A stretch of DNA of 64,000 nucleotides, from assembly GCA_048940925.1 (NCBI GenBank), contig JBHLOC010000018.1, forward strand, positions 8,415 to 72,414, written 5' to 3'. The position numbers and the translations under genes are program-made. Every line of letters starts with the position of its first letter. Positions within the stretch are counted from its first letter, which is position 1. This stretch comes from Promethearchaeota archaeon. Lineage in GTDB: Archaea > Asgardarchaeota > Lokiarchaeia > Sigyniarchaeales > SOKP01. This document shows, in pieces, positions 51,976 through 53,735 of this stretch. The notes under the pieces were generated by a model. The model made no database searches. It saw nothing but the letters and a program-made list of their open reading frames with translations, and was not told where the DNA came from.

Positions 51976-52185
51976 TTATTCCTCTTCTTCTTCTTCCAAT
52001 AGTTCTTCTATTTTATCTTCTAATTCTTCAATTTTATCGTCGATTTCAGCGATTTTATTATATGTTTCACATGTCTCGCACGCATCGGGTTCCTCGCATT
52101 TTGGGAGAGTATCACAAATTTCCTCTAATTTATCTCTCTCATCTAATAGTTTTTCAATTTCCTCTTCTAGTTTTTCAATACTCAT
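51976..52185 (-). CDS. Small acidic coiled-coil protein with a central Cys cluster
   Basis: Heptads flanking C-x5-C-x5-C-x2-C; SD AGGTG upstream. Confidence 0.75.
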   Translation of the reverse strand: MSIEKLEEEIEKLLDERDKLEEICDTLPKCEEPDACETCETYNKIAEIDDKIEELEDKIEELLEEEEEE

Positions 52186-52254: not shown

Positions 52255-53085
52255 TTATCTAAAAAAAGTCAAATACACATATGTAACTATCAATATCGCT
52301 ATGATGATCAAGAAAAGAATAATAAAACATTTCCTTGATTTCTTACTTTTTATAAATTCTTTCCCTTCTAAGATAAGAGTTTCTTGATCACCATTATCCA
52401 GTGTTGTATCTTTAATTAAAAACTGCCCAGTATCAGTTTGAATTATCTCTAATTCTTCCCTTTTTTGCAATTTTTTAGTTAATTTTCTGAATTCCTTTAC
52501 TGATTTCTTAATTAAATCTTGAGTTTCTTTGGGTAAATCATCATCCCGAATTTCAAGATCTTGTGTCATAAAATCTAAACCAACAGTTAACTTGTAATCT
52601 GCTTCAAACTCTTTATTAACAAAAGATTTGATTAATGAAGACTTCCCTACAGCAGCTTCCCCAACAAGCAATATTTTAAACCTAAAATGATCAGAATTGA
52701 TAATTTCACCTAACCTTGCTTTAAAATCTAGCAATGAGATTAATGCTAACCTATAAAATAACTTATCTACGTTATTTTTTTCTAAGGCTGATGTTTCTAT
52801 AAACTCAAATAGATTGTATTGATTTAATTTTTGAAGTATTTTATCTTTTGGAACTGCTTCTCCGATATCTTTCTTTAAATCATTTTTATTTCCAACTAAG
52901 ATAATTGGGATGTTTCCTGAATGTTCACGTAAATCTTTAAAATATTCGTCAATATTTTCGAGGGTATCAGGTCTAGAAAGATCAAATACTAATGCAACTG
53001 TAGCAACTCCGTTAAAAAAATCAGTTTTAAAGAAGCTAAACCGCTCTTGACCTGCGATATCCCAAAGACTTAGAGTTACTCTCAT
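52255..53085 (-). CDS. Circularly permuted Rab-like GTPase with a C-terminal TM anchor
   Basis: Motif order WDIAGQE (G3), NKND (G4), ETSAL (G5), GEAAVGKS (G1), LTVGLDF (G2); hydrophobic C-terminus. Confidence 0.88.
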   Translation of the reverse strand: MRVTLSLWDIAGQERFSFFKTDFFNGVATVALVFDLSRPDTLENIDEYFKDLREHSGNIPIILVGNKNDLKKDIGEAVPKDKILQKLNQYNLFEFIETSALEKNNVDKLFYRLALISLLDFKARLGEIINSDHFRFKILLVGEAAVGKSSLIKSFVNKEFEADYKLTVGLDFMTQDLEIRDDDLPKETQDLIKKSVKEFRKLTKKLQKREELEIIQTDTGQFLIKDTTLDNGDQETLILEGKEFIKSKKSRKCFIILFLIIIAILIVTYVYLTFFR

Positions 53086-53222
53086 TAAAGGTTCAGACCT
53101 CTACTTTTGGTTCAATAAGATAATTTTAATTGTCATTATTATAAAATATTAAAAATTGATATAATTTAAAATTAAAAAAGCGATTTCAATTTATTGAATA
53201 AATAATTAGAATTCTATATTTA

Positions 53223-53735
53223 CTATAATTTTTTCTCTAAAATTTCTAGCATGTCTTCTTCGAGAGTAGGATGCCATTTTGGATTTTCAACTATAGTGCC
53301 TATAAGATCACCAGTTTTGTTAAAGAAATAGAATGTTGGGATTGCTTTTAAGTCAAATTTTGGATCAACAGCTTCAGGTGGAGAACGTTTTTTATGCCAT
53401 CTAGGCTCTCCGGGTTTATCTATAGCGTTTACCATAATGCCATACAAAATTTGTAATGTTACATCATCTGAACTTATGGTTTTCATTATTTTTATCATAT
53501 AAGGCACATTCTTAGTGCAATCAGGGCACCAATCTGCACCCAATACAACTATTTTTAACTTTTGATTTTTTTCTTTCAATATATTTTGGATTTTTTCAAT
53601 AATTTCTGACTTTGGTGTATAATTTTCAAGATTGCTGTTGATTATTGGCTTATCTTTATTGAGATTTATATACTCATCAGGAGTTAAAGTTGGAGATATT
53701 AGATCGTAATATTTTAATTCACTCATATTTAACAT
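53223..53735 (-). CDS. Thioredoxin-family protein
   Basis: WCPDC active site and IPTF cis-Pro. Confidence 0.88.
   Translation of the reverse strand: MLNMSELKYYDLISPTLTPDEYINLNKDKPIINSNLENYTPKSEIIEKIQNILKEKNQKLKIVVLGADWCPDCTKNVPYMIKIMKTISSDDVTLQILYGIMVNAIDKPGEPRWHKKRSPPEAVDPKFDLKAIPTFYFFNKTGDLIGTIVENPKWHPTLEEDMLEILEKKL

What the first reader, a model, noticed from the sequence alone, without database searches (positions are those of the whole stretch)
52255..53085. Circularly permuted, tail-anchored Rab-like GTPase (G3-G4-G5-G1-G2)
Seen: the protein starts at strand beta3 (MRVTLSLWDIAGQERF, G3 at aa 8-14), then NKND (66-69) and ETSAL (97-101), and only afterwards FKILLVGEAAVGKSS (G1, 142-149) and LTVGLDF (G2, 166-172). 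A charged linker and a C-terminal TM helix preceded by KSKKSRK follow. The two parts add up to one complete G domain opened at the beta2-beta3 loop. An in-frame TAG lies just upstream of the ATG and only 137 AT-rich nt separate it from the upstream gene, so no N-terminal half is missing. Established: YlqF/RsgA-type permuted GTPases use G4-G5-G1-G2-G3, whereas G3-G4-G5-G1-G2 is known from the rare eukaryotic cpRAS domain. Inference: an Asgard Rab-like permutant, probably from tandem duplication and trimming, attached to the membrane by a TM helix rather than prenylation, with the tether leaving right after switch I.
Basis: partly seen in the sequence, partly recalled or inferred. Interest (0 to 1): 0.85.

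Follow-up and report, generated by a model that had tools for sequence, protein, structure and literature searches.

The report
Permuted, membrane-anchored Rab-like GTPase
This Lokiarchaeia-type Asgard gene encodes a real, conserved Rab-like GTP switch whose two sequence halves are swapped and which carries its own membrane anchor; the same swap is known only from the eukaryotic cpRAS domain, and no paper I could search describes this archaeal form.

Summary
ORF 52255-53085 (-) encodes 276 aa with motif order G3-G4-G5-G1-G2, each motif present once and intact. Residues 5-113 align to Rab11 57-163 and residues 133-180 to Rab11 4-51.

It is not a truncation or a misassembly. Collinear orthologues with the same N-terminus occur in 66 further species genomes, two of them closed chromosomes. 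The G domain has dN/dS of about 0.1.

With a deep alignment, AlphaFold2 gives one compact domain (pLDDT 84, pTM 0.83). Natural permuted GTPases (YqeH, YlqF, RsgA) align through its helix 5-to-strand 1 junction, so both halves sit as in a closed G domain.

New here:
- The family is confined to one order of Asgard archaea. MAG names such as Thor, Odin, Hod and Hermod are misleading.
- It has two subfamilies, one of them 430-755 aa with a conserved C-terminal membrane domain.
- The membrane anchor is ancestral. The short soluble-looking forms are later tail losses.

The most likely role is a GTP switch held permanently on the cytoplasmic face of the membrane. That function is inferred, not shown.

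I found no paper describing this family. This scan had already flagged it in other genomes. I class it as a new variant of a known kind (cpRAS topology, independent Rab-like origin).

The parts
52255..53085 (-). Whole CDS (276 aa plus stop): circularly permuted Rab-like GTPase with stalk helix, spacer and tail anchor
53101..53103 (-). In-frame TAG six codons upstream of the ATG, which excludes a longer N-terminus. An SD-like AGAGGT lies at 53097-53102.
   Evidence: read directly from the sequence
52720..53085 (-). First half, aa 1-122: strand 3, switch II, and on through helix 5 (equivalent to Rab11 57-163)
53047..53061 (-). G3 motif DIAGQ (aa 9-13). D9, G12 and Q13 are invariant in 132 family members.
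52879..52890 (-). G4 motif NKND (aa 66-69). K67 and D69 are invariant.
52786..52797 (-). G5 motif ETSA (aa 97-100). S99 is invariant.
52690..52728 (-). New linker joining helix 5 to strand 1 (aa 120-132, DFKARLGEIINSD). G126 is invariant and D120, R124 and E127 nearly so. The model places a short extra strand here.
52546..52689 (-). Second half, aa 133-180: strand 1, P-loop, helix 1, switch I, strand 2 (equivalent to Rab11 4-51)
52639..52662 (-). G1 P-loop GEAAVGKS (aa 142-149). G142, V146, G147 and K148 are invariant.
52570..52596 (-). G2 / switch I YKLTVGLDF (aa 164-172). Y164 and T167 are invariant. The motif is of the Rab TxGxDF type.
52432..52533 (-). Conserved cationic amphipathic helix after strand 2 (aa 185-218). 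P185 and E187 are nearly invariant. Hydrophobic moment is 0.72-0.75 and net charge +5 to +8 over residues 189-208. dN/dS is 0.14-0.28 against the two closest orthologues.
52351..52431 (-). Variable, probably disordered spacer (aa 219-245). pLDDT is below 50 and dN/dS is about 1 or higher.
52258..52350 (-). Polybasic flank KSKKSRK and C-terminal transmembrane helix (aa 246-276), a tail anchor with about three residues beyond the membrane

Best explanation
The gene encodes a functional small GTPase of the Ras superfamily, Rab-like in sequence. Its chain is circularly permuted at the beta2/beta3 hairpin: it begins at strand 3 (G3), runs through G4, G5 and helix 5, crosses a conserved 13-residue linker into strand 1 (G1), and ends the domain at strand 2 (G2).

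The two parts are predicted to fold into one closed G domain that binds and hydrolyses GTP. After strand 2 come a conserved 35-residue cationic amphipathic helix, a variable spacer and a C-terminal transmembrane helix.

The most likely working model is a nucleotide switch held permanently on the cytoplasmic face of the cell membrane (positive-inside flank KSKKSRK). It would recruit soluble partners through its nearly invariant switch I and switch II surfaces when GTP-bound. There would be no lipid anchor and no GDI-type extraction cycle.

Shown here: the motif order, conservation, purifying selection, the predicted closed fold and the predicted tail anchor. Inferred: GTP binding and hydrolysis, membrane topology, effector recruitment, and origin by fusion of tandem genes followed by trimming.
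For: - Swapped complementary halves.
- All five G motifs, the catalytic Gln and the switch I Thr are invariant or nearly so in 132 members.
- Collinear orthologues in 66 further species genomes, each with an open frame only a few codons longer than the protein. Two of these are closed chromosomes.
- dN/dS is 0.07-0.12 for the G domain, 0.14-0.28 for the helix and about 1 or more for the spacer.
- AlphaFold2 with 132 sequences gives pLDDT 84.4 and pTM 0.83 for residues 1-220, with low confidence only in the switch loops.
- Canonical Rab and Rho structures align to model residues 1 to about 120 (Z about 12, rmsd about 2 A). YqeH, YlqF, RsgA and Lsg1-type permuted GTPases align sequentially over model residues 13-179, across the new junction (137-149 residues, Z 11-12.5).
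- Tail anchor: hydropathy 3.1 and a helix at 249-275 in the full-length model.
- Every orthologue outside the window's own genus is TM-anchored, and parsimony places the anchor at the root.
- Two ArsA/Get3-family ATPases are encoded in the genome, but that family is found in every control genome, so this shows only plausibility.
Against: - There is no biochemical or localisation evidence.
- The fold evidence is a prediction, and I could not inspect the coordinates.
- About three quarters of species in the window's genus have lost the TM tail, so membrane insertion is not essential to the family.
- Two sublineages have an altered G3 motif (LEIGGQ in genus g2, WDPPGD/E in genus g13), so GTPase activity may not be universal.
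- Gene neighbours give no functional clue.
Confidence: 0.8

Rival explanations
1. Artefact or decay product: a strain-specific truncation, misassembly or chimeric deletion within a tandem array of ordinary small-GTPase genes, with no function.
For: Adjacent tandem canonical GTPase genes, separated by only a few codons, are common in related genomes (L097, L098). Fused di-GTPases also exist (P0140, P0144).
Against: The same architecture, the same start and an upstream stop recur in 66 further species genomes, including closed chromosomes. The G domain has dN/dS of about 0.1. This genome has exactly one permuted gene among 103 ORFs with a Ras-like domain.
Confidence: 0.01
2. A pseudo-GTPase: a membrane protein that keeps the fold but no longer cycles nucleotide, and acts as a scaffold.
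For: The beta2/beta3 hairpin was argued to be needed for proper folding (Anand et al., as cited in PMC2430557). Some sublineages have a degenerate G3. The genome also encodes a canonical-order, tail-anchored protein with degenerate motifs.
Against: In the window's protein and in the core family, every residue needed for Mg-GTP binding and hydrolysis is invariant or nearly so. Such conservation is not expected if nucleotide chemistry were dispensable.
Confidence: 0.07
3. The archaeal counterpart or ancestor of the eukaryotic cpRAS domain, meaning one permutation event shared with eukaryotes.
For: The topology and the break point are the same. CPRas is now considered a possible LECA gene (PMC13393502).
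Against: cpRAS belongs to the RAS family proper, with the TIE G2 motif, and sits inside large VWA or COG2373-type proteins. This family is Rab-like (best PDB hits Rab11, Ypt31 and Sec4; G2 TVGLDF) and nests among small GTPases of canonical motif order whose source organisms are not known. It was found only in one order of the phylum and in none of about 250 genomes of other Asgard families. A third, Rab7-like permuted sequence from a foraminiferan groups elsewhere, which suggests the event recurs.
Confidence: 0.04
4. Not a membrane switch at all: a soluble regulatory GTPase (for example an assembly factor, like the YlqF/RsgA permuted GTPases) whose hydrophobic tail is incidental.
For: Most species of the window's genus carry a tail-less form. 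The structural neighbours include ribosome-assembly cpGTPases.
Against: The tail anchor, or a multi-TM C-terminal domain, is present in every other genus and in the sister subfamily, and it is inferred to be ancestral. The tail-less forms keep the cationic amphipathic helix. There are no RNA-binding domains. The match to YlqF-type proteins is at fold level only, with 15-21% identity.
Confidence: 0.06

Closest known systems
cpRAS domain of eukaryotic CPRas proteins (Elias & Novotny 2008, Biol Direct 3:21, PMC2430557)
   Same: It has the identical motif order G3-G4-G5-G1-G2, the break at the beta2/beta3 turn, and helix 5 joined directly to strand 1. All G motifs are retained.
   Different: cpRAS is a RAS-family domain (TIE G2 motif) embedded in large eukaryotic proteins with a VWA or COG2373-like region. 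The protein here is Rab-like, stand-alone, archaeal and tail-anchored, and probably of independent origin. I made no direct sequence comparison.
YlqF/YqeH/RsgA (YRG) circularly permuted GTPases
   Same: These are natural permuted G domains. They align structurally with the model across the helix 5-to-strand 1 junction (Z 11-12.5, 137-149 residues).
   Different: Their order is G4-G5-G1-G2-G3, with the cut between strand 3 and helix 2. They are ribosome-assembly factors with RNA-binding domains and share only 15-21% identity.
Canonical Rab-like small GTPases of Asgard archaea (e.g. Thorarchaeota Rab, PDB 7EZB) and eukaryotic Rab11/Ypt31/Sec4
   Same: These are the best sequence matches (E 1e-23 to 1e-28). 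They share the Rab-type switch I motif and the catalytic Gln.
   Different: They have the canonical order. Eukaryotic Rabs are prenylated at C-terminal cysteines and cycle through GDI. Here there are no C-terminal cysteines and a TM helix instead.
Protein-anchored small GTPases such as SR-beta (N-terminal TM) and Miro (C-terminal tail anchor) - from general knowledge, not tested here
   Same: A Ras-superfamily G domain is fixed to a membrane by its own TM helix.
   Different: Both have the canonical motif order, belong to different subfamilies and are eukaryotic.

Membership tests
Ras superfamily small GTPase (P-loop, TRAFAC class) | G1 GxxxxGK[ST], G2 Thr, G3 DxxG, G4 NKxD and G5 [ET]SA are all present | tested here: met
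   GEAAVGKS 142-149, T167, DIAGQ 9-13, NKND 66-69, ETSA 97-100. They are invariant or nearly so in 132 members. Pfam Ras matches at E 1.4e-37.
Ras superfamily small GTPase (P-loop, TRAFAC class) | Six-stranded G-domain fold | tested here: met
   Met in a predicted model only. AlphaFold2 gives pLDDT 84.4 and pTM 0.83. VIA-align gives Z about 12 to Rab and Rho over residues 1-120, and to YqeH and YlqF over residues 13-179.
Rab family (eukaryotic sense) | C-terminal Cys prenylation motif (CC, CXC or CAAX) | tested here: not met
   The chain ends ...TYVYLTFFR. Its only Cys lies at the start of the TM helix.
Rab family (eukaryotic sense) | RabF motifs (IGVDF, KLQIW, RFRSIT, YYRGA, LVYDIT) | tested here: inconclusive
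   By eye only: VGLDF, TLSLW, RFSFFKT, FFNGV, LVFDLS. These resemble the RabF motifs in part. The best PDB hits are Rab11, Ypt31 and Sec4.
Rab family (eukaryotic sense) | Canonical order G1-G2-G3-G4-G5 | tested here: not met
cpRAS domain | Order G3-G4-G5-G1-G2 with the break between strands 2 and 3 | tested here: met
cpRAS domain | RAS-family affinity, including the TIE G2 motif | tested here: not met
   G2 is LTVGLDF. The nearest relatives are Rab-like.
cpRAS domain | Embedded in large proteins with a VWA or COG2373-like region; eukaryotic | tested here: not met
   The protein is a stand-alone 276 aa with a TM tail. The long subfamily has a different C-terminal domain with no Pfam match. All sources are archaeal.
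cpRAS domain | Sequence or phylogenetic grouping with the CPRas proteins | not tested
YRG (YlqF/RsgA) cpGTPases | Order G4-G5-G1-G2-G3 | tested here: not met
   G3 is N-terminal here, not C-terminal. The NCBIfam YlqF and RsgA scores are far below their cut-offs.
Tail-anchored membrane proteins | A single TM helix within about 30 residues of the C-terminus, no N-terminal signal, and a cytosolic N-terminal domain | tested here: met
   By prediction. The hydropathy maximum is 3.1 at 254-272, about three residues follow it, and five basic residues precede it. The full-length model has a helix at 249-275.

The most novel reading that the evidence does not exclude
The permutation is adaptive rather than neutral. 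By cutting the interswitch hairpin, it makes the membrane-proximal cationic amphipathic helix a direct continuation of strand 2. GTP-dependent movement of switch I and strand 2 would then be passed straight to the membrane-binding element. This would be an Arf-like 'nucleotide state controls membrane engagement' device, reached by a different topological route in archaea that lack protein lipidation. The tail-less forms would then cycle on and off the membrane through this helix alone.
Probability: 0.15. Interest if true: 0.85.

Novelty: new variant of a known kind. Interest (0 to 1): 0.6.

Why it matters
- The G3-G4-G5-G1-G2 permutation was once argued to be incompatible with folding, and it has been known only from the rare eukaryotic cpRAS domain. 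A second, independently derived and strongly conserved case shows the Ras fold tolerates opening of the interswitch hairpin. This case is prokaryotic, stand-alone and present in two subfamilies.
- It is also one of the few Asgard small GTPases with an evident, built-in way of attaching to a membrane. That bears on the open question of whether the expanded Asgard GTPase repertoire acts on membranes.
- Automated annotation calls these proteins 'GTP-binding protein' or 'ADP-ribosylation factor-like'. Surveys that require an N-terminal P-loop may discard them as incomplete.
- The confinement to one order tempers any link to eukaryote origins.

Tried and rejected
- Homodimer prediction (residues 1-220, two copies) gave no verdict. 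I do not use it as evidence either way.
- Foldseek against PDB on the first, shallow model (pLDDT 67) aligned only the larger half, so it could not test closure. The deeper model and VIA-align replaced it.
- I considered the acidic Cys4 neighbour as a partner and dropped the idea. It is adjacent in 38 of 45 loci, but most of those are from one genus. An opposite-strand HD gene separates the pair in about half of the loci. The neighbour is missing near the gene in genera g2 and g10 and in one of two g7 loci, and the sister subfamily has other neighbours.
- Loci L056-L069 from the genome scan turned out to be canonical-order GTPases.
- The 'spanning' hits in G209, G204, G128 and G299 carry in-frame stop codons. 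The two I inspected (G209, G128) are adjacent canonical genes read through a stop.
- The weak Pfam SNARE hit at residues 246-267 (E 0.011) lies on the TM helix, and I take it as spurious.
- Pfam found nothing in the C-terminal domain of the long subfamily.
- In the careful tree the three genus-g13 long forms fell beside a canonical protein. An AU test does not reject one clade for all 57 permuted sequences (p 0.33), and the g13 forms share the long subfamily's C-terminal domain.
- Seven literature searches and look-ups inside the two main Asgard GTPase surveys found no mention of a permuted Asgard GTPase.
- I could not obtain cpRAS sequences by reference, so I made no joint tree.

Full report
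**1. The observation**

The minus-strand ORF 52255-53085 encodes 276 aa. An in-frame TAG lies six codons upstream of the ATG, an SD-like AGAGGT lies 11 nt upstream, and 137 nt separate the gene from the upstream one.

Three searches agree on the swapped order:
- Pfam Ras matches in two stretches (E 1.4e-37).
- phmmer against PDB aligns residues 133-180 to Rab11 residues 4-51 (strand 1, P-loop, helix 1, switch I, strand 2). It aligns residues 5-113 to Rab11 57-163 (strand 3 to helix 5).
- An HMM built here from 50 canonical small GTPases hits residues 2-114 at model positions 56-165 and residues 131-190 at positions 4-63.

The two parts are complementary and meet at the beta2/beta3 turn. Each G motif occurs once.

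**2. It is a real gene family**

A word-indexed search returned many near-full-length, collinear relatives with 57-83% identity. All begin M-x-x-TLSLWD.

A search of 400 species genomes of the same phylum found the gene in 66 genomes besides the window's own at E <= 1e-35. Each was one collinear hit covering residues 1 to about 213, in an open frame only a few codons longer than the protein. No orthologue is a tandem di-GTPase. Two of the genomes are closed chromosomes.

The window's genome has 103 ORFs with a Ras-like domain, 95 of them with a full domain in canonical order. Exactly one is permuted.

Against the two closest orthologues, dN/dS by region is:
- G domain: 0.07-0.12
- Post-beta2 helix: 0.14-0.28
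- Spacer: 1.4-2.3
- TM helix: 0.28-0.56

More distant pairs are saturated at synonymous sites.

**3. Fold**

With 33 close sequences, the full-length model was mediocre (pLDDT 67). With 132 sequences including the divergent subfamily, residues 1-220 gave pLDDT 84.4 and pTM 0.83. Only switch II (15-19) and switch I (159-168) fell below 50.

The element order in the model is: strand 3, helix 2, strand 4, helix 3, strand 5, helix 4, strand 6, helix 5, a short extra strand, strand 1, helix 1, strand 2, then a long helix at 186-218.

In an all-against-representatives structural search, canonical Rab and Rho chains align to model residues 1 to about 120 (Z about 12, rmsd 1.7-2.3 A). The natural permuted GTPases YqeH, YlqF, RsgA/YjeQ and the Lsg1/Nog2-type proteins align sequentially over model residues 13-179, through the new helix 5-to-strand 1 junction (137-149 residues, Z 11-12.5). 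The strand 1-to-strand 2 segment therefore sits where it does in a closed G domain. This is a prediction, and I could not inspect the coordinates.

**4. Where the family occurs**

By the anonymised GTDB grouping, the hits are confined to the window's order:
- Family f1: 63 of 134 genomes.
- Genera within f1: g1 49/53, g2 5/5, g3 1/1, g7 2/2, g10 1/1, g11 4/10, g12 1/42.
- Sister family f3: 3 of 14.
- All other families of the phylum: 0 of about 250.

A profile search added divergent long forms in genus g13 and nothing collinear without stop codons among the listed matches outside the order.

By contig coordinates they map to handles of the window's own genus: L019 = G197, L015 = G205, L043 = G199, L031 = G203. 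The apparent spread across Asgard phyla in the database names is therefore not real. Heimdall-, Hel- and Odin-named genomes from other submissions gave only canonical GTPases.

**5. Two subfamilies and the history of the anchor**

An exhaustive HMMER search also found proteins of 280-755 aa. They have the same permuted N-terminal domain at about 40% identity, an LPEE-type helix, a long Pro- and charge-rich linker, a conserved C-terminal domain with no Pfam match, and two or three TM helices. These proteins are named Promethearchaeota or simply archaeon.

I built a tree from domains re-ordered to canonical order (114 rows, IQ-TREE LG+G4; the ultrafast bootstrap had not fully settled, so its values are rough). 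It unites 54 permuted sequences with support 100/99 and splits them into a core clade (100/97) and the long clade (100/99). The three g13 long forms fall outside this clade, but one clade for all 57 is not rejected (AU p 0.33), and the g13 forms share the C-terminal domain.

Long (TM) and short (214-243 aa) core forms occupy the same syntenic slot, so they are orthologues. Every orthologue examined in the other genera is TM-anchored. The short forms make two nested groups inside genus g1, and parsimony puts the anchor at the root. The window's protein keeps the ancestral architecture.

**6. Mechanism**

All residues for Mg-GTP binding and hydrolysis are invariant or nearly so. The switch II segment (ERFDFFKTDFF) and the new linker (D120, R124, G126, E127) are also nearly invariant.

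Residues 189-208 form a strongly amphipathic cationic helix, with hydrophobic moment 0.72-0.75 and net charge +5 to +8. The tail has five basic residues before a 21-residue hydrophobic helix and about three residues after it, which is a classic tail anchor with the G domain in the cytoplasm.

I therefore favour a permanently membrane-tethered GTP switch that recruits partners through its switch surfaces. The helix would serve as a stalk or as a second membrane contact. In the tail-less forms it would be the only contact.

Origin by fusion of tandem genes and trimming fits the data. Adjacent GTPase genes a few codons apart and fused di-GTPases are common. The linker ends in a Rab N-terminus-like HFRFK. 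No intermediate was found.

**7. Comparison and novelty**

The same order is documented for the eukaryotic cpRAS domain. That domain is RAS-family and embedded in large proteins. The family here is Rab-like, stand-alone, archaeal and restricted to one order, so an independent origin is likely, though I could not test it directly.

A Rab7-like permuted sequence from the foraminiferan Bolivina argentea groups with canonical sequences elsewhere in the tree.

No searchable paper mentions a permuted Asgard GTPase, including the two main Asgard GTPase surveys. Earlier follow-ups in this scan reached the same core reading on other genomes. The points I have not seen noted before are the restricted distribution, the misleading MAG names, the long subfamily, the ancestral anchor and the structural closure test.

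Noticed in passing
window 51976-52185 (-): A 69-aa protein of extreme acidity (net charge -23) with two predicted helices flanking a C-x5-C-x5-C-x2-C knuckle. It lies 70 nt downstream on the same strand. It is present near the GTPase gene in 38 of 45 related loci but lost from the neighbourhood in more distant genera. It has no significant Pfam family.
   Followed up: partly
P0127, P0129, P0130, P0143, P0146; L099:61-2184, L100:503-1828, L094-L096: A sister subfamily of 430-755 aa. It has the same permuted G domain, then a Pro- and charge-rich linker, a conserved domain with no Pfam match (motifs KRKTTVFY..QMNP, FPGC..VP, PLDARKD, TPTKVVKQT) and two or three TM helices. In two loci its neighbours are an Hrq1-like helicase and a JAB+TPR protein. 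The genus g13 members have G3 changed to WDPPGD/E.
   Followed up: partly
P0237 (EukProt EP01084, Bolivina argentea): A 243-aa Rab7-like sequence with the same G3-G4-G5-G1-G2 order, from a foraminiferan transcriptome. It groups with canonical sequences, so it would be a further independent permutation if it is not an assembly artefact.
   Followed up: partly
L015, L019, L031, L043 and others (JBHL... accessions): MAGs deposited as Hod-, Thor-, Hermod- or Odinarchaeota coincide by contig coordinates with genomes that the GTDB-based grouping puts in the window's own genus. The deposited phylum names look wrong.
   Followed up: partly
own genome, contig C11:20447-21157 (-), outside the window: A 236-aa canonical-order Ras-like protein with degenerate P-loop and G3 motifs and a C-terminal TM helix. 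It is a second tail-anchored GTPase-like protein in the same genome.
   Followed up: no
L102:2983-3020 (genus g2 orthologue; also L101): The orthologue reads ITLSVLEIGGQ, with Trp-Asp of G3 replaced by Leu-Glu. It has no ATG, GTG or TTG start upstream of that Leu codon within the open frame, so either an unusual start codon is used or strand 3 is truncated.
   Followed up: partly
window 53223-53735 (-) to 52255: In most relatives a 681-aa protein with no Pfam match and a SAM-methyltransferase gene lie between the thioredoxin-like gene and the GTPase gene. The window and its three closest relatives lack both.
   Followed up: no
L097:497-1591, L098:582-1643: Pairs of canonical small-GTPase genes lie head to tail, separated by one to four codons. 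This is the arrangement from which a fusion-and-trimming permutation could start.
   Followed up: partly
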